Part shown: positions 1,554-11,692 of the stretch, in pieces
Numbering within the stretch: position 1 is the stretch's first letter
How the letters are laid out: every line of letters begins with the position of its first letter
Source of the DNA: a virus
Length of the DNA stretch: 12,612 bases
UHGV virus genome: UHGV-1964375
Strand: one strand, 5' to 3'
Notes under the pieces: model-generated
What the model was told of the DNA's origin: nothing
The model's database searches: none
The model's input: the letters and a program-made list of their open reading frames with translations, nothing else
Position numbers and translations under genes: made by a program

Positions 1554-1880
1554 TCAAATAAGTGGTTTGCTGCCTAATTTCATTTTCTGGCGACCAACAC
1601 AAGTCACACCCATTTCACTGCGTGGCTTGCTGTACCATGTGCGCTTATTCTTTCGCTCAATACGTTGCAGGTTGCTTTCAATCTGTTCGTGGTATTCAGC
1701 CAGCACCGTAAGGTCTATCGGATTCAGTGCGCTTTCTACTCGTGATTTCGGTTTGCGATTCAGCGAGAGAATAGGGCGGTTAACTGGTTTTGCGCTTACC
1801 CCAACCAACAGGGGATTTGCTGCTTTCCATTCGGCCTGTTTAGCTGCGCGACGTTCGCGACGGCGTGTTTGAGAGTCCAT
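1554..1880 (-). CDS. N: antitermination protein N (107 aa)
   Basis: MDSQTRRRERRAAKQAEWKAANPLLVGVSAKPVNRPILSLNRKPKSRVESALNPIDL... is near-identical to lambda N, including the Arg-rich boxB-binding motif QTRRRERRA. Lies downstream of pL and nutL. Confidence 0.92.
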   Translation of the reverse strand: MDSQTRRRERRAAKQAEWKAANPLLVGVSAKPVNRPILSLNRKPKSRVESALNPIDLTVLAEYHEQIESNLQRIERKNKRTWYSKPRSEMGVTCVGRQKMKLGSKPLI

Positions 1881-2414: not shown

Positions 2415-3767
<1,353 letters not shown>

Positions 3768-3807: not shown

Positions 3808-3886
3808 ATCAAATTAAACCACACCTATGGTGTATGCATTTATTTGCATACATTCAATCAATTGTTATCTAAGGAAATACTTACAT

Positions 3887-4165
3887 ATGCAACTTACAAG
3901 TACTCGCAAGAAAGCGAATGCAATTACAAGCAACATCCTGAATCGAATTGCTGTACGTGGTCAGCGAAAGGTGGCCGACGCGTTAGGGATTAATGAATCG
4001 CAAATTTCACGATGGAAAGACAGCTTCATCCCAAAAATGGGAATGCTTCTGGCTGTTCTTGAATGGGGTGTTGAAGACGAGGAGTTGGCGGAACTGGCTA
4101 AGAAAGTAGCCAGAATGCTGACAAAAGAAAAAGCCCCGAAGAACGGCGAATTCTTCGAGGCCTGA
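3887..4165 (+). CDS. cII: transcriptional activator CII (92 aa)
   Basis: Internal Met of ORF 3827..4165, with AAGGAAAT upstream. [41 protein letters not shown] parallels lambda CII ([25 protein letters not shown]). Confidence 0.85.
3920..3933 (-). promoter_or_regulatory. pRE -35 region / CII binding site (TTGC-N6-TTGC)
   Basis: The minus strand reads TTGCTTGTAATTGC inside the 5' part of cII, antisense to it, which is where pRE sits in lambda. Confidence 0.55.
4122..4161 (-). terminator. intrinsic terminator antisense to the cII 3' end (oop-RNA-like terminator)
   Basis: Minus-strand 11-bp stem (one mismatch) with a 7-nt loop, followed by UUUUUCUUUUG. A possible -10 (CATAAT, minus strand, plus coordinates 4197..4202) would give a transcript of about 70 nt. 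Confidence 0.5.
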
Positions 4166-4199: not shown

Positions 4200-4346
4200 A
4201 TGACAAAACAACTCAGTCCTTACCAGGACAAAATTCACAAACACATACTACGTGATCGCTTCCTGTCCAGCTTCAAGCAGCCTGGTCGATTCCGGGCTGA
4301 GTTGGAAAAAGTGAAGCTGATGCAGAAGGAGAAAGGTCATGAGTAA
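4200..4346 (+). CDS. possible 48-aa ORF between cII and O
   Basis: My own translation: [53 protein letters not shown] is 5 nt before the ATG. The 3' end overlaps the O start by 8 nt. Confidence 0.3.
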
Positions 4347-5199
4347 TCTTGCAACCGTAACACATTTAAGGCCTTCACAACGGCCTGTGGAGCGTCGTGT
4401 GGCAGAAGTTGAAGATGGTTATACCCGTCTTGCAAATGCCCTGTATGAAGAGCTTATCGGCGCAGATTTAACGAAAAATCAGAGCAAGGTTGCCCACGCC
4501 ATATGCCGTAAAACATACGGCTACGGTAAAAAGATGGATCGCATCTCTGATAGTCAGTTAGCTCAAATTACCAGGCTGCCAAGACAGAAGGTAAACAAGG
4601 CCAAGAATGAGCTTATCGCGATGAAGGTTATCCTTCGCGAAGGCCAGCAAATCGGGCCTAACAAGAACATCGAGGAATGGCAAATCGAAGGGTGTCACTA
4701 CTCTGGTGATAATGTCACTGCATTGGTGACAAAAAGTGTCACCAAAACGGTGACAGCGCTGTCACCAAAACAGGGACACACAAAAGAAACTATTACAAAA
4801 GAAAAAAGAAATAATAAAAACACTATGTCCGAAAGTGTTCGGACGGAGTGTGAAAAATCACCTGACCGTCACGAAGAAACCGACAAGGCATTCGAGGAAA
4901 TATTCTGGTGTGCAGGCATGCGGAAAGCCGGGAAGAAAAACGCAGCTTCGGCATTCAGAACACAGTTCAGGGAATGGCGTAAAACTACCAAGGGTACCGC
5001 AAGCGAGTTTGCCACGATGCTGGCAGAAGACATCGCATGCAGGAATGGTAAGCAGTTCGGATTCGACAGGTTGTTACCATCGAGCTACCTGAACGGTCAA
5101 CGCTGGAACGACGAGAAGCCAGAAACTATTCAACCACAATCCAAACCATCATCCGCAATCACCGTATCGAAAACTGGCTACGTGTTTTTCGACAGGTGA
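4339..5199 (+). CDS. O: replication initiator, lambda O-like N-terminal domain (286 aa)
   Basis: [56 protein letters not shown] parallels the lambda O N-terminus. Iteron-like palindromes and an AT-rich tract lie inside the gene, as for ori-lambda. The C-terminal half is unlike lambda O. Confidence 0.85.
4684..4812. repeat. putative replication origin: iteron-like palindromes plus AT-rich tract inside the O gene
   Basis: Repeated TGTCAC...GGTGA units at 4684..4700 and 4704..4721, then palindromes GGTGACA-aaaag-TGTCACC (4716..4734) and GGTGACA-gcgc-TGTCACC (4740..4757), followed by an A-rich 40-bp tract at 4771..4812. Confidence 0.6.
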
Positions 5200-5306
5200 A
5201 CCATGAAATCAAAAATCAAATCGCTACTGGTCGCTGGTTATAACCACGGCTGGTTAAGTATTTCGTTTGTCGATTTCTGGTTTAAAAATCTCAATCTGAG
5301 GGAATC

Positions 5307-5801
5307 ATGATGAGCCTTGAAGTTGGAGAATATATACCTGGTTATGAGGGTAAATACTCTGTAACCAAAGACGGTCGTGTTTATTCACATTTAAGAGGCA
5401 GGTTTTTGAATCCATCTCCGGATAACAAGGGTTATCTAAGAGTCACTTTGTGTTCCGATGGGATTCAGAAGACGTTAAAAGTTCATCGTCTTGTAGCTCA
5501 ATTATTTATCCCAAATCCGTATTGCAAGCCAGAAGTAAATCATATCAACGGCGACAAATCGGATAACGCCATTTGGAACTTGGAATGGTGTACCTGCTCA
5601 GAGAATTTAAAACATGCTTTTAGCATCGGACTGAAAAGCGCAAAGGGAGTTTTTAATGGTAGGGCAAAACTATCTGAAACTGATGTGATTGATATCAGGA
5701 ATTCTGTTGGTATGAAACTAAGCGAACTATCCACTAAATACGGAGTGAGTGAAATGCAAATTTCCACAATCCGCAGAGGAAACGCATGGAGGCACCTTTG
5801 A
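5307..5801 (+). CDS. HNH homing endonuclease (164 aa), apparently intact
   Basis: N-terminal YEGKYSVTKDGRVYS motif (NUMOD4-like) and HRLVAQLFIPNP...VNHINGDKSDNAIWNLEWCTCSENLKHA (HNH). GAGGGA SD upstream. Lies between O and the helicase gene. Confidence 0.85.
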   Translation: MMSLEVGEYIPGYEGKYSVTKDGRVYSHLRGRFLNPSPDNKGYLRVTLCSDGIQKTLKVHRLVAQLFIPNPYCKPEVNHINGDKSDNAIWNLEWCTCSENLKHAFSIGLKSAKGVFNGRAKLSETDVIDIRNSVGMKLSELSTKYGVSEMQISTIRRGNAWRHL

Positions 5802-7678
5802 GTCCATCAGAACTTAGCGACCTGCTTTGGGCGCAGGTTGACAGGGTGGCTCCGCACCTGTTGCCAAACGGCAAGAAAGAGGGGCATGAGTGGGTTGCCG
5901 GTAACGTCAACGGTGACAAGGGAAACAGCCTTAAGGTCAACCTTAGCGGCAAGAAAAAATGGGCTGATTTCGCTGAGGGAGACGGCGGTGACATGCTTGA
6001 TTTGTGGATGGCATGTCGTGGAATTAACCTGCATCAGGCTATGCAGGAAGCGAAAGCATTTCTCGGTATCAAGGATGACGATCACCATTTCGATGCCAAA
6101 CGTGAGAAAAAATTCTCCAGACCTGATCGCAAGAAAATCGCCCGCTACGTTACCAGAACAGAATCCCATCTTGAGTACCTGCAATCGCGTGGCATATCGC
6201 CAGAAGTCGTAAAGCGCTACGAGGTTGTCAGCGGCAAGGTGTGGAATGGAGAGCGAGAACTGGATGCTCTGGTGCTTCCGTACAAACGCGATGGTGAGTT
6301 GTTGCAGGTCAAGCGAATCAGCACTGAGCGCCCGGACGGGAAGAAAGTCATTATGGCAGAAGGTGATTGCGAACCTTGTCTGTTCGGATGGCAGGCTCTG
6401 GACGCTGGCGTAAGGGCGGTTGTACTTTGCGAAGGCGAAATTGATTGTATGAGCTATGCGCAATACGGCATCTCGGCGTTATCCGTGCCGTTTGGTGGCG
6501 GGAAAGGCGCTAAGCAACAGTGGATTGAGTTTGAGTATCACAACCTCGACAGGTTTGAGGAAATATTCATCTCGATGGACGTTGATGATGTTGGTCGTGA
6601 AGCCGCAAGGGAAATCGCAAGCCGACTCGGTGAACATCGTTGCCGTCTTGTTACTCTGCCGTACAAAGACATCAACGAATGCCTGATGAACGGTGTTACC
6701 GAGGATGAAATCTGGCAGTACATCGGCACGGCATCCTACTTCGATCCTGAAGAACTCTACAGCGCGCGAGAGTTTTACCAGGACACTATCAACGCTTTCT
6801 ACGGCAAGCAGCAGTATCTGTTTAATCCACCGTGGGAATCTCTGGCAGATAAATTCCAGTTCCGTGAGGCCGAGTTGACGCTGGTCAATGGTGTGAACGG
6901 TCACGGAAAAACGGAGGTTGTCGGGCATATGGCACTTGAGGCAATGCGTCAGGGTGTGAAGACGTGCATCGCGTCACTTGAGCTGAAGCCAGGCATTCTC
7001 CTTAAGCGACTTACCCGTCAGGCGACGTGCTGCAAGATGCCGCCAGTGCTGGAAATTGACTCTGCATTTAAATTTTATGACGAAAGACTTTGGGTGTTTG
7101 GCCTGACCGGAACGGCGAAAGCCGACAGGCTGATCGAAATATTCGACTACGCTCGCCGCCGATACGGGATCCAGTTATTCATCATCGACAGCCTGATGAA
7201 ATGCGGCATAGGTGACGATGACTATAACGGGCAGAAAGCATTTGTTGACTCGATTTGTGACTTCAAAAACAAAACAAACTCCCACGTCATTCTCGTTACT
7301 CACTCCAGAAAAGGAGACAGCGAAGAAAAACCAACCGGGAAAATGGACGTAAAAGGCTCTGGAGCGATAACAGACCTGACAGACAACCTTTTTATCATCT
7401 GGCGTAACAAGGCTCGCGAGAGAGCGTTACAGAGAGTTCAGAGTGGTGAAAAGATGTCAGAGAAGGACGAACAGCTACTGGCATCTCCGGCATCTGTTTT
7501 GATGCTTGAAAAACAACGTAACGGCGAAGGTTGGGAAGGTGGTGTCCCGTTGTTCCTTGACGAGCAATCGCACCAGTTCCTGCAACTTGAATCAGGATCG
7601 CCATATAGCTACATCGCCAATATGCCGAAATCGGAATATGACGAGGCGTGGCGACAGGAAAACGTGACGGAGTATTAA
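5786..7678 (+). CDS. bifunctional DNA primase/helicase (Toprim domain plus DnaB/SF4-like ATPase), 630 aa
   Basis: Toprim motifs VVLCEGEIDCMSYA and ISMDVDDVGREAA. Walker A NGVNGHGKTE and Walker B LFIIDSLMK. The start overlaps the HNH gene by 16 nt. Confidence 0.85.
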   Translation: MEAPLSPSELSDLLWAQVDRVAPHLLPNGKKEGHEWVAGNVNGDKGNSLKVNLSGKKKWADFAEGDGGDMLDLWMACRGINLHQAMQEAKAFLGIKDDDHHFDAKREKKFSRPDRKKIARYVTRTESHLEYLQSRGISPEVVKRYEVVSGKVWNGERELDALVLPYKRDGELLQVKRISTERPDGKKVIMAEGDCEPCLFGWQALDAGVRAVVLCEGEIDCMSYAQYGISALSVPFGGGKGAKQQWIEFEYHNLDRFEEIFISMDVDDVGREAAREIASRLGEHRCRLVTLPYKDINECLMNGVTEDEIWQYIGTASYFDPEELYSAREFYQDTINAFYGKQQYLFNPPWESLADKFQFREAELTLVNGVNGHGKTEVVGHMALEAMRQGVKTCIASLELKPGILLKRLTRQATCCKMPPVLEIDSAFKFYDERLWVFGLTGTAKADRLIEIFDYARRRYGIQLFIIDSLMKCGIGDDDYNGQKAFVDSICDFKNKTNSHVILVTHSRKGDSEEKPTGKMDVKGSGAITDLTDNLFIIWRNKARERALQRVQSGEKMSEKDEQLLASPASVLMLEKQRNGEGWEGGVPLFLDEQSHQFLQLESGSPYSYIANMPKSEYDEAWRQENVTEY

Positions 7679-8913: not shown

Positions 8914-9091
8914 CCCATCCCAATCCCTTCAATACCAGAAAGAAAGCGTCGAGCGGGCTTTAACGTGCGCTAACTGCGGTCAGAAGCTGCATGTGCTGGA
9001 AGTTCACGTGTGTGAGCGTTGTATATATGAATGCTTAAATATGGTGGAACATAATGAGAAATATAAGCAACATAGACGAATTAAGAAATAA
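8906..9091 (+). CDS. ninF: NinF-like protein with insertion-derived C-terminus (disrupted ninF, 5' part)
   Basis: [39 protein letters not shown] matches the lambda NinF N-terminus as I recall it, then diverges (IYECLNMVEHNEKYKQHRRIKK) where the HNH gene is inserted. Confidence 0.6.
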   Translation: MLSPSQSLQYQKESVERALTCANCGQKLHVLEVHVCERCIYECLNMVEHNEKYKQHRRIKK

Positions 9092-9561
9092 ATTATCATA
9101 TGATGATGTTTTAGGTGTACTTAGATGGAAAGTGTCTCCTTCTAATAATGTTAAGGTTTGCAGTGTTGCTGGTTACATTAGGAGTGATGGTTATAGGATG
9201 TTAACTATCGATGGTGTAATTACTTATGCTCACCACGTTATATGGATGATAAATAATGGTGAGATTCCATTAGGGTATAAAATTGATCATATAAATGGAG
9301 TAAGGGTCAGATAATAGGCTATCTAATCTTCGATTGGTTACACACCAACAGAATGCACAGAACCAAAAGAGAAAAATAACCAATTCGTCAGGAGTGACTG
9401 GAGTATATTTCAATAAAGAGAGATGTAAGTGGATTGCGAATATATGCGTAGATGGGCGCACCAAATATCTTGGAATATTTGCTAGCATCATTGACGCTAT
9501 TGCAGAAAGGAAGAGGGCAGAAAAAGAACTGGGTTTTCATGAAAACCATGGTAGACCATAA
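9054..9561 (+). pseudogene. HNH homing endonuclease (HNH plus AP2-like DNA-binding domain) inserted in ninF; reading frame broken by a +1 shift near 9303..9306
   Basis: Frame A reads ...YAHHVIWMINNGEIPLGYKIDHINGVRVR then stop. The +1 frame from 9304 reads GSDNRLSNLRLVTHQQNAQNQKRK...SGVTGVYFNKERCKWIANICVDGRTKYLGIFASIIDAIAERKRAEKELGF. Removing one G from the GGG run would restore HINGVRSDNRLSNLR. Confidence 0.7.
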
Positions 9562-11072: not shown

Positions 11073-11692
11073 GACTCGAAAGCGTAGCTAAATTTCATTC
11101 GCCAAAAAGCCCGATGATGAGCGACTCACCACGGGCTACGGCTTCTGACTCTCTTTCCGGTACTGATGTGATGGCTGCTATGGGGATGGCGCAATCACAA
11201 GCCGGATTCGGAATGGCTGCATTCTGCGGTAAGCACGAACTCAGCCAGAACGACAAACAAAAGGCTATCAACTATCTGATGCAATTTGCACACAAGGTAT
11301 CGGGGAAATACCGTGGTGTGGCAAAGCTTGAAGGAAATACTAAGGCAAAGGTACTGCAAGTGCTCGCAACATTCGCTTATGCGGATTATTGCCGTAGTGC
11401 AGCGACGCCGGGCGCAAGATGCAGGGATTGCCACGGTACAGGTCGGGCGGTTGATATTGCCAAAACAGAGCAGTGGGGGAGAGTTGTCGAGAAAGAGTGC
11501 GGAAGATGCAAAGGTGTCGGCTATTCAAGAATGCCAGCAAGCGCCGCATATCGCGCTGTAACGATGCTAATCCCAAACCTTACTCAACCCACCTGGTCAC
11601 GCACTGTTAAGCCGCTGTATGACGCTCTGGTGGTGCAATGCCACAAGGAAGAGTCAATTGCAGACAACATTTTGAACGCGGTCACACGTTAG
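11069..11692 (+). CDS. Q: late-gene antiterminator Q (207 aa)
   Basis: [48 protein letters not shown]... is essentially lambda Q over its full length. Confidence 0.95.
11356..11369 (-). promoter_or_regulatory. paQ-like CII binding site (TTGC-N6-TTGC) antisense within Q
   Basis: The plus strand reads GCAAGTGCTCGCAA, so the minus strand reads TTGCGAGCACTTGC. Lambda has the CII-dependent antisense promoter paQ at a comparable position. Confidence 0.45.

What the first reader, a model, noticed from the sequence alone, without database searches (positions are those of the whole stretch)
4339..7678. Mosaic replication module: lambda-O-like initiator with internal iterons paired with a Toprim-primase/SF4-helicase fusion instead of lambda P
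The initiator keeps the O-type N-terminal DNA-binding domain and an ori-like iteron/AT-rich block inside its coding sequence (4684..4812). Its C-terminal half is unlike lambda O, and no P or ren gene follows. Instead there is a 630-aa protein with Toprim primase motifs and a DnaB-like Walker A/B core. This predicts replication independent of host DnaB and DnaG, and an O C-terminal domain adapted to recruit the phage helicase.
Basis: partly seen in the sequence, partly recalled or inferred. Interest (0 to 1): 0.45.

Follow-up and report, generated by a model that had tools for sequence, protein, structure and literature searches.

The report
Known ES18-type lambdoid replication module
This is an ordinary, already described prophage replication module: a lambda-O-like origin-binding protein with the origin inside its own gene, followed by a T7-like primase-helicase.

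Summary
Gene 4339-5199 encodes an O-type initiator: Phage_rep_O, E 1e-37, and 49% identity to lambda O over aa 1-157 only. A lambda-style origin lies inside it, with four 19-bp dyad iterons (4693-4778), the most AT-rich stretch of the window (4779-4822) and a palindrome. Gene 5786/5798-7678 encodes a T7-gp4/Twinkle-like primase-helicase. This rests on sequence (E 3e-23 to T7 gp4), on fold (Foldseek E 4e-22) and on conserved Toprim and SF4 catalytic residues.

The module is not new. It is 99% identical to phages Sf101 and mEp043 and 88% identical to ES18, where the genes are annotated gp59/ori/gp60/gp61. It corresponds to the 'O2/P2' and 'Eru5' types of Stx phages. The junction occurs in 292 of 5426 complete E. 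coli genomes.

One is a conserved 35-aa ORF (5203-5310), present in 107 of 108 primase-helicase loci. The other is a NUMOD4/HNH homing-endonuclease gene (5307-5801) inserted at the primase-helicase start codon, found in only 5 of those 292 genomes.

The O C-terminal domain belongs to a broad family with no Pfam model. Elsewhere that family pairs with lambda-P-like or DnaC-like loaders, so it is not specific to the primase-helicase. Independence from host DnaB and DnaG is plausible but untested. The primase's zinc-finger-like domain has no cysteines.

The parts
4339..5199 (+). O-type replication initiator gene (286 aa): N-terminal winged-helix origin-binding domain, disordered linker, C-terminal helical domain
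   Evidence: Pfam PF04492 at 1.1e-37, aa 20-114. TIGR01610. 49% identity to lambda O over aa 1-157 only. The AF2 model shows a winged helix at aa 27-116, disorder at 119-170 and helices at 177-252.
4693..4778 (.). Four 19-bp dyad-symmetric iterons (TGTCAC-N6-GGTGACA), spaced 20, 24 and 23 bp apart
   Evidence: 8 strand-matches against 0.26 expected. In register with lambda ITN1-4 but with a different sequence.
4779..4822 (.). AT-rich, A/T strand-asymmetric unwinding element
   Evidence: 82-85% A+T, the highest 41-mer in the window, 29 A against 5 T. Nearly identical to the lambda and ES18 AT-rich segment ACACAAAAGA.ACTATTACAAAAGAAAAAA.
4820..4851 (.). Inverted repeat (14-nt arms) on the right side of the origin
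   Evidence: pair I6. Conserved in ES18.
4867..5118 (+). Region encoding the O C-terminal helical domain (aa 177-260), signature AF..FW.AGMRK...FGFDKL.P..YLNG.RW
   Evidence: pLDDT 94-98. 370 representative clusters at E<=1e-3. No Pfam model. Not related to the lambda O C-terminus.
5203..5310 (+). Conserved 35-aa ORF (homologue of ES18 gp60, phrog_21848). Its stop overlaps the next start codon (ATGA)
   Evidence: Present in 107 of 108 loci that hold the primase-helicase N-terminus. Not detected in the 51 loci that hold neither. There are 36 protein variants, 29 of them exactly 35 aa.
5307..5801 (+). Free-standing NUMOD4 + HNH_3 homing-endonuclease gene, inserted between the 35-aa ORF and the primase-helicase gene
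   Evidence: Pfam NUMOD4 at 1.6e-10 and HNH_3 at 2.3e-9. PHROG 59. Absent from Sf101, ES18 and 24B at exactly this point. Present in 5 of 292 E. coli genomes and 3 of 80 IMG/VR loci. Diverged copies (70% and 61% identity) sit at the same site in L056 and L085.
5786..7678 (+). T7-gp4/Twinkle-like bifunctional primase-helicase gene. The start is ATG 5786 (630 aa) or the ancestral-position TTG 5798 (626 aa)
5864..6070 (+). Region encoding the zinc-ribbon-like N-terminal domain, which has no cysteine ligands
   Evidence: TIGR01391 dnaG positions 27-155 match aa 30-147. The model shows beta-strands followed by two helices at pLDDT 72-90. Aquifex DnaG ZBD+RPD 2au3 matches at E 2.7e-12. The segment has no cysteine pairs (sequence). 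It is strongly conserved in the family.
6422..6685 (+). Region encoding the Toprim domain (aa 213-300), with E216/E218/D220, D265/D267 and D295
   Evidence: Pfam Toprim_2. These residues align with T7 gp4 E157, D207/D209 and D237 and are invariant.
6860..7579 (+). Region encoding the SF4 RecA-type helicase domain (aa 359-598): Walker A G372-x-G374-K375-T, E399, Walker B D468, H506
   Evidence: AAA_25 and DnaB_C. Alignment to the T7 gp4 helicase. Family invariants.

Best explanation
This is the early-right replication module of a P22-like or lambdoid prophage of the ES18/Sf101 type.

Proposed mechanism:
1. Transcription from pR expresses the O-type initiator.
2. Its N-terminal winged-helix domain binds the four dyad iterons that lie inside its own gene. 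This bends and opens the adjacent AT-rich segment, as in lambda.
3. Its C-terminal helical domain, possibly with the co-transcribed 35-aa protein, brings in the phage's own hexameric T7-gp4-like primase-helicase. Lambda instead uses P to capture host DnaB.
4. The primase-helicase unwinds the origin and probably lays down primers. Host Pol III holoenzyme does the synthesis.

Shown here: the domain identities, the origin architecture, conservation of the catalytic residues, and strict three-gene linkage.
Inferred: the recruitment step, the lack of need for DnaB and DnaC, and, less securely, the lack of need for DnaG.

In this particular allele a free-standing HNH homing-endonuclease gene has inserted at the start codon of the primase-helicase gene. 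It takes over the old ribosome-binding site and ATG. It supplies a new Shine-Dalgarno sequence and start codon for the primase-helicase, so the module stays intact.
For: - Domains and fold: (Twinkle 7t8c at 4e-22, T7 gp4 5ikn at 1.8e-21, Aquifex DnaG at 2.7e-12).
- Catalytic residues are invariant with T7 gp4.
- The origin is built like lambda ori and sits in register with it. It encodes exactly the disordered linker of O, aa 119-170, which is nt 4693-4848.
- The same module is 99% identical in the viable phages Sf101 and mEp043 and 88% identical in ES18. ES18 is annotated 'similar to lambda ori' and 'putative primase/helicase; similar to phage T7 gene 4'.
- No loader or helicase is annotated elsewhere in Sf101.
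- All 80 of the closest IMG/VR loci carry the O C-terminal domain, the 35-aa ORF and the primase-helicase in this order.
- Eleven loci have a swapped N-terminal/iteron type but keep the C-terminal domain and the primase-helicase. Spearman correlation of identity is 0.85 for C-terminal domain against primase-helicase and 0.69 for N-terminal domain against primase-helicase.
- The similarity breakpoints with ES18 and 24B fall at the origin, at about window 4766 and 4815.
- The HNH gene is a precise insertion with an intact ORF.
Against: - No experiment on this module type was found in the searchable literature. PMC8951638 states that nothing is known about the replication proteins of Eru-type Stx phages.
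- The zinc-binding-domain-like region has no zinc ligands. T7 gp4 without its zinc-binding domain lacks template-directed primase activity, and metazoan Twinkle has lost primase activity (established knowledge).
- The O C-terminal domain family is not specific to the primase-helicase. Distant members are followed by Phage_lambda_P (8), IstB/DnaC-like (7) or DnaB (1) genes.
- The helicase half of the model is of moderate to low confidence (pLDDT 30-77).
- The arginine finger could not be placed by alignment.
Confidence: 0.8

Rival explanations
1. The fusion protein supplies only the replicative helicase. Its primase half is degenerate, as in metazoan Twinkle, or is only an accessory. Host DnaG would then still be needed for priming. 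This would parallel P22, whose gp12 helicase works with host DnaG.
For: The N-terminal zinc-ribbon-like domain has no cysteine or histidine ligand set (sequence). phmmer aligned only aa 195-543 with T7 gp4. The precedents are P22 gp12 working with DnaG (Wickner 1984, cited in PMC8022706) and the primase-dead human Twinkle (established knowledge).
Against: All Toprim metal-binding acidic residues (E216, D265, D267, D295) are invariant across relatives of 69-99% identity and match T7 gp4. The zinc-less N-terminal domain is itself among the most conserved parts of the protein and is modelled with confidence. That pattern argues for selection on primase function.
Confidence: 0.2
2. Host DnaB is still the fork helicase. 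The O C-terminal domain contacts host DnaB/DnaC directly or through the 35-aa protein. The primase-helicase serves a later stage, such as the rolling-circle or recombination-dependent phase.
For: The same C-terminal domain family is paired with lambda-P-like and DnaC-like loaders of host DnaB in other phages. Thirty-four of 314 lambdoid phages encode only an O homologue and must use host factors (PMC12315714).
Against: The primase-helicase has a full set of SF4 motifs and is tightly linked to O in 107 of 108 loci. No loader is annotated in the Sf101 genome. T7-type helicases self-load without a loader (established knowledge).
Confidence: 0.08
3. In this particular prophage the module is inactive, because the HNH insertion has displaced the original start of the primase-helicase gene.
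For: The insertion replaces the original SD-ATG context. The homologous start is now TTG.
Against: All four ORFs are intact. Two good Shine-Dalgarno and start combinations exist: AGAGGA-N6-ATG at 5786 and GGAGG-N5-TTG at 5798 (sequence). The same allele is 99-100% conserved in 5 E. coli genomes and 3 IMG/VR contigs with different flanking prophage regions. Diverged HNH genes sit at the same site in otherwise intact modules.
Confidence: 0.07

Closest known systems
Salmonella phage ES18 genes 59-60-61 with ori inside gene 59 (Casjens et al. 2005, cited in PMC2629481). Also epsilon34 gp50-52 and g341c
   Same: Same three-gene order: O-like initiator, 35-aa ORF, primase/helicase. DNA identity is 88% from the fourth iteron onward. 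The O C-terminal domain is 95-97% identical. The AT-rich segment and palindrome are the same.
   Different: ES18 carries lambda-type iterons (ATCCCTC...GAGGGAT) and a lambda-type N-terminal domain. The window has TGTCAC-N6-GGTGACA iterons and a 47-49% identical N-terminal domain. ES18 has no HNH gene.
Phages Sf101 (gp44, gp45) and mEp043
   Same: 99% nucleotide identity over O, the origin, the small ORF and the primase-helicase. The iterons are the same.
   Different: They lack the 0.5-kb HNH endonuclease gene. Their primase-helicase starts MTPSELS from the original ATG. RefSeq does not annotate the 35-aa ORF.
Stx phage phi24B / Min27 'O2/P2' (Smith et al. 2012, PMC3430580), which is Eru5 of Stx2a_F403 (PMC8951638)
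   Same: The O C-terminal domain is 95% identical. The primase-helicase is about 97% identical at the DNA level.
   Different: The N-terminal domain is HTH_36-type, not Phage_rep_O. The primase-helicase (968 aa) is interrupted by a LAGLIDADG intein in the helicase domain. There is no HNH gene.
Lambda O / ori-lambda / P
   Same: Same initiator N-terminal family. Four iterons, an AT-rich segment and a palindrome lie inside the initiator gene in the same register. Same position in the pR operon after cII.
   Different: The C-terminal domain is unrelated at the sequence and HMM level. There is no P loader and no ren. The phage encodes its own helicase and primase.
P22 gene 18 / gene 12
   Same: A lambdoid module in which an O-like initiator is paired with a phage-encoded DnaB-type (SF4) helicase rather than a loader (PMC8022706).
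   Different: P22 gp12 has no primase domain and works with host DnaG. In the window a DnaG-type Toprim primase is fused to the helicase.
T7 gp4 and mitochondrial/plastid Twinkle
   Same: Same two-domain architecture, fold and catalytic residues. The C-terminal tail is acidic and ends in an aromatic residue.
   Different: T7 gp4 has a Cys4 zinc-binding domain, works with its own DNA polymerase and needs no separate origin-binding initiator. In the window the zinc ligands are absent and an O-type initiator is encoded upstream.

Membership tests
Lambda O-type initiators (Phage_rep_O) | N-terminal winged-helix origin-binding domain (PF04492 / TIGR01610) | tested here: met
   1.1e-37 against a cut-off of 28.7 bits. 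1.7e-30. 49% identity to lambda O aa 1-157.
Lambda O-type initiators (Phage_rep_O) | Origin (about four iterons plus an AT-rich segment) located inside the initiator's own coding sequence | tested here: met
Lambda O-type initiators (Phage_rep_O) | C-terminal domain homologous to the P-binding domain of lambda O | tested here: not met
   No BLASTP similarity after aa 157. The C-terminal domain HMM scores lambda O at -1.4 bits.
Lambda O-type initiators (Phage_rep_O) | Sequence-specific binding of the protein to the iterons | not testable with these tools
   Needs EMSA or footprinting.
T7 gp4 / Twinkle bifunctional primase-helicases | DnaG-type Toprim domain with conserved acidic metal ligands | tested here: met
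   Toprim_2 at 3.2e-12. E216, D265, D267 and D295 align with T7 E157, D207, D209 and D237.
T7 gp4 / Twinkle bifunctional primase-helicases | C-terminal SF4 RecA-type helicase with Walker A, catalytic Glu, Walker B and motif 3 His | tested here: met
   K375, E399, D468 and H506 are invariant and align with T7 K318, E343, D424 and H465. Foldseek top hits are Twinkle and gp4 at E about 1e-21.
T7 gp4 / Twinkle bifunctional primase-helicases | Arginine finger (T7 R522) | tested here: inconclusive
   The family-invariant R578 in KQRNGEGW is a candidate, but MAFFT did not align this segment with T7.
T7 gp4 / Twinkle bifunctional primase-helicases | N-terminal Cys4 zinc-binding domain | tested here: not met
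   A zinc-ribbon-like fold is predicted but the segment has no cysteine pairs (sequence). This resembles metazoan Twinkle.
T7 gp4 / Twinkle bifunctional primase-helicases | Primase and helicase enzymatic activities, hexamer formation | not testable with these tools
   Biochemistry is required.
ES18-type lambdoid replication module | Gene order: initiator with this C-terminal domain, then the 35-aa ORF, then the primase-helicase, in the pR operon between cII and the nin genes | tested here: met
   80 of 80 closest loci share it.
Free-standing HNH homing endonucleases (NUMOD4/HNH_3, I-HmuI-like) | HNH nuclease motif plus a NUMOD-type DNA-binding module | tested here: met
   NUMOD4 at 1.6e-10 and HNH_3 at 2.3e-9. 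PHROG 59 at 1e-56.
Free-standing HNH homing endonucleases (NUMOD4/HNH_3, I-HmuI-like) | Presence/absence polymorphism at one precise site between otherwise near-identical alleles | tested here: met
   (5 of 292 genomes). Altered flanking codons are found only in occupied alleles.
Free-standing HNH homing endonucleases (NUMOD4/HNH_3, I-HmuI-like) | Cleavage of the empty allele and copying of the gene into it | not testable with these tools
   Needs a cleavage assay or a co-infection cross.

The most novel reading that the evidence does not exclude
The strictly linked 35-aa protein (5203-5310, the ES18 gp60 family) is a functional third component. It would act as a minimal adaptor or loader that couples the generic O C-terminal domain to the primase-helicase, taking the place that lambda-P-like or DnaC-like loaders hold next to the same domain in other phages. 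If so, the HNH endonuclease has settled exactly at the translational coupling point between adaptor and helicase without breaking the module.
Probability: 0.2. Interest if true: 0.5.

Novelty: already known. Interest (0 to 1): 0.15.

Why it matters
It matters little as a discovery. This replication-module type has been annotated since ES18. It occurs in about 5% of complete E. coli genomes and in Stx-converting phages.

What remains of value is practical. No experiment on this module type was found in the literature searched here, although it drives replication, and therefore toxin gene dosage, in some Stx2a phages ('Eru5'). A phage-encoded primase-helicase would make those phages insensitive to anything that acts through host DnaB, DnaC or DnaG.

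Three points from this analysis give concrete handles for such work:
- A conserved 35-aa gene is always linked to the primase-helicase.
- The initiator C-terminal domain family, which has no Pfam model, pairs with four different kinds of partner.
- A homing endonuclease is lodged at the start codon.

Tried and rejected
- Remote homology between the C-terminal domains of this O and lambda O. A MAFFT alignment hinted at shared residues. An HMM built from 80 diverse members did not detect lambda O, so the idea was rejected.
- The idea that the C-terminal domain is specific to primase-helicase partners. Partner genes in distant loci include lambda-P-like loaders, DnaC-like loaders and a DnaB-like helicase, so it was rejected.
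- The insertion at codon 267 of the primase-helicase in locus L050, considered as another intein or homing element. It is an IS3-family insertion sequence.
- Homology between the window's HNH and T7 gp3.8, which holds the same position upstream of T7 gene 4. Only the HNH motif is similar (E 0.006 in a pairwise comparison).
- A first iteron pattern with a 7-nt spacer found nothing. The spacer is 6 nt.
- The search for homologous proteins with the C-terminal domain returned only close, mostly partial sequences. The exhaustive representative search was needed.
- The ES18 genome paper (PMC545730) is not held. Its content is cited only through the GenBank annotation and PMC2629481.
- Literature searches for experimental tests of DnaB or DnaG dependence of this module found none.


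Full report
**Context.** The window is the early region of a lambdoid, P22-like prophage. It carries N (1554-1880, minus strand), a LexA-family cI-type repressor (2816-3448, minus strand) and cro. On the plus strand it then carries cII (3827-4165), a DUF2740 gene (4200-4346), the region of the finding, NinB, NinF-like, NinG, NinH, a Ser/Thr phosphatase, Q and a holin.

- The 286-aa product of 4339-5199 has the Phage_rep_O domain at aa 20-114 (1.1e-37; TIGR01610 1.7e-30).
- It is 49% identical to lambda O over aa 1-157 and shows nothing beyond that.

- Inside the gene are four 19-bp dyad repeats, TGTCAC-N6-GGTGACA, at 4693, 4713, 4737 and 4760. That is 8 strand-matches against 0.26 expected in the window.
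- Next is the most AT-rich 41-mer of the whole window (4779-4822, 82-85% A+T, 29 A against 5 T).
- Then comes an inverted repeat with 14-nt arms (4820-4851).
- Aligned with lambda, the four repeats fall in register with ori iterons 1-4 but have a different sequence. The AT-rich segment is nearly identical to lambda's.
- The AlphaFold model of O shows a winged-helix domain (27-116), a disordered linker (119-170) and a confident helical C-terminal domain (177-260, pLDDT 94-98).
- The linker is encoded by nt 4693-4848, which is exactly the origin.

**The downstream large protein is a T7-gp4-type primase-helicase.**
- Pfam finds Toprim_2 (3.2e-12), AAA_25 and, below threshold, DnaB_C. PHROG 239 'DNA primase/helicase' matches at 2e-171.
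- phmmer against PDB sequences gives T7 gp4 at 2.7e-23 and Twinkle at 6.5e-14 over aa 195-543.
- A model built from 24 homologues has pLDDT 80-95 in the primase half and lower confidence in the helicase half. It retrieves Twinkle (4e-22), T7 gp4 (1.8e-21) and Aquifex DnaG ZBD+RPD (2.7e-12) as top Foldseek hits.
- The Toprim acidic residues are E216, D265, D267 and D295. The helicase residues are K375, E399, D468 and H506. All align with their T7 counterparts and are invariant in the family.
- The N-terminal domain is predicted to be zinc-ribbon-like but has no cysteine ligands. It is nevertheless very conserved.

Two further genes lie between O and the primase-helicase.
- The first is a 35-aa ORF at 5203-5310, the homologue of ES18 gp60 (phrog_21848, 4e-26).
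  - Across 160 related loci from IMG/VR it is present in 107 of 108 loci that hold the primase-helicase N-terminus. It was not detected in the 51 loci that hold neither.
  - It has 36 protein variants, 29 of them exactly 35 aa. There is more variation at third codon positions. Its stop overlaps the next start codon.
  - It is conserved down to 49% identity in phage Fraca.
- The second is a 164-aa NUMOD4/HNH_3 endonuclease gene at 5307-5801.
  - Alignment with Sf101, ES18 and 24B shows it is a precise 0.5-kb insertion at the start codon of the primase-helicase gene. It uses the old Shine-Dalgarno sequence and ATG.
  - Downstream, the primase-helicase now begins either at ATG 5786 or at TTG 5798. 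TTG 5798 is the position homologous to the ancestral ATG and is the PGAP call.
  - The first five codons read TTGAGTCCATCAGAA only in occupied alleles. All empty alleles read ATGAC(N)CCAAGTGAA or a close variant.
  - The insertion is rare. It is in 5 of the 292 complete E. coli genomes that carry the junction and in 3 of 80 IMG/VR loci.
  - Diverged HNH genes (70% and 61% identity) occupy the same site in two diverged modules.
  - No deposited phage genome has a close copy. The best DNA match is 71% over 138 bp and the best protein match is below 49%.

**The module is already known.**
- Megablast finds the whole region, minus the HNH gene, at 99% identity in Sf101 and mEp043. From the fourth iteron onward it matches ES18, epsilon34 and g341c at 88%. 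From just after the AT-rich block it matches Stx2 phages 24B, Min27 and Stx2a_F403 at 97%.
- The ES18 record annotates gene 59 as similar to lambda gpO, a rep_origin 'similar to lambda ori' inside it, gp60 as unknown, and gene 61 as 'putative primase/helicase; similar to phage T7 gene 4'.
- PMC2629481 describes the same region in epsilon34.
- Smith et al. 2012 describe the phi24B 'P' protein with an intact Toprim primase domain, a GP4d helicase domain and an intein. They class the pair as O2/P2.
- PMC8951638 lists the Stx2a_F403 arrangement as Eru5 and states that nothing is known experimentally about Eru replication proteins.
- The primase-helicase family has more than 3000 database members, almost all 624-629 aa, across Enterobacterales.

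**How far 'an O C-terminal domain adapted to the phage helicase' holds.**
- Evidence in favour:
  - The C-terminal domain is co-inherited with the 35-aa ORF and the primase-helicase in all 80 closest loci.
  - At least three unrelated N-terminal/iteron types sit in front of it: the window type, the lambda type of ES18, and the HTH_36 type of 24B.
  - Eleven loci have a swapped N-terminal domain with the C-terminal domain and primase-helicase unchanged.
  - Identity of the C-terminal domain tracks that of the primase-helicase more closely (Spearman 0.85) than identity of the N-terminal domain does (0.69).
  - The similarity breakpoints lie in the origin. This is the classical lambdoid module boundary.
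- Evidence against specificity:
  - An exhaustive HMMER search finds 370 representative clusters with this domain. It always sits at the C-terminus of proteins of 250-350 aa.
  - There is no Pfam model for it. Its N-terminal partners are HTH_36, Phage_rep_O, DUF1376, DnaD_N and others.
  - In distant loci the gene immediately downstream is a lambda-P-like loader (8), an IstB/DnaC-like ATPase (7), a DnaB-type helicase (1) or something else. Pseudomonas phage Skulduggery is an example with a DnaC-like loader.
- The domain is therefore a general partner-recruiting module of phage initiators, and the window carries the clade that travels with the primase-helicase.
- It is not detectably related to the C-terminus of lambda O, and no solved structure could be matched to it.

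**Mechanism.**
- The best-supported reading is the lambda scheme with the loader step replaced. O binds the iterons and opens the AT-rich segment. Its C-terminal domain, perhaps with the 35-aa protein, recruits the self-loading phage primase-helicase. Host Pol III replicates.
- The viable phage Sf101 has no loader or second helicase annotated anywhere in its genome.
- Independence from DnaB and DnaC is therefore likely. Independence from DnaG is probable but less secure because the zinc-binding-like domain lacks zinc ligands.
- No experimental test was found in the literature searched here.

**Verdict.** The finding is correct in substance but ordinary and already annotated in several phage genomes. 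The allele-specific feature is the homing-endonuclease insertion. The only lead with some novelty is the invariably linked 35-aa gene of unknown function.

Noticed in passing
window 9054-9561: A second HNH_3 (plus weak AP2-like) endonuclease gene is split into two ORFs (9054-9314 and 9334-9561). It lies in a low-GC patch (0.34-0.39). Relative to Sf101 it is a 0.54-kb insertion between ninF and ninG. It looks like a decayed homing-endonuclease gene.
   Followed up: partly
L003 2996-5902; L035, L046, L050: The primase-helicase gene is a hotspot for selfish DNA. A LAGLIDADG intein interrupts the helicase domain at about codon 370 in phi24B-type alleles and in L035 and L046. An IS3-family insertion sequence sits at codon 267 in L050. 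The HNH gene sits at the start codon here.
   Followed up: partly
L171/L172 (T7 11225-11590 and 11565-13265): T7 itself has an HNH endonuclease gene (3.8) that overlaps the start of its primase/helicase gene 4. This is the same arrangement as in the window. The two HNH proteins share only the HNH motif.
   Followed up: partly
window 5798-5812: Occupied (HNH+) alleles of the window type uniquely read TTGAGTCCATCAGAA at primase-helicase codons 1-5. No empty allele among about 100 loci has this version. This fits either co-converted flanking DNA or target-site immunity.
   Followed up: partly
window 7630-7675: The primase-helicase ends in an acidic tail with a terminal aromatic residue (...EYDEAWRQENVTEY). 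W622, N626 and T628 align with the polymerase-binding C-terminal tail of T7 gp4. The partner in a phage without its own polymerase is unknown.
   Followed up: no
window 2415-2891 (-): A 158-aa ORF lies directly downstream of the cI-type repressor and overlaps its 3' end. It has no Pfam match. It has an internal signal-peptide-like segment ([20 protein letters not shown]). Its position suggests a lysogen-expressed accessory or exclusion gene.
   Followed up: no
window 4200-4346; L001 2862-3008: The DUF2740 gene that overlaps the start of O (ES18 gp58 position) is named 'tail protein' in the RefSeq record of Sf101. Given its place in the early operon, this is probably a misannotation.
   Followed up: no
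L131 4327-4523: This is the only locus of 108 with a primase-helicase but no recognisable 35-aa ORF. A 196-nt non-coding spacer lies there instead.
   Followed up: partly
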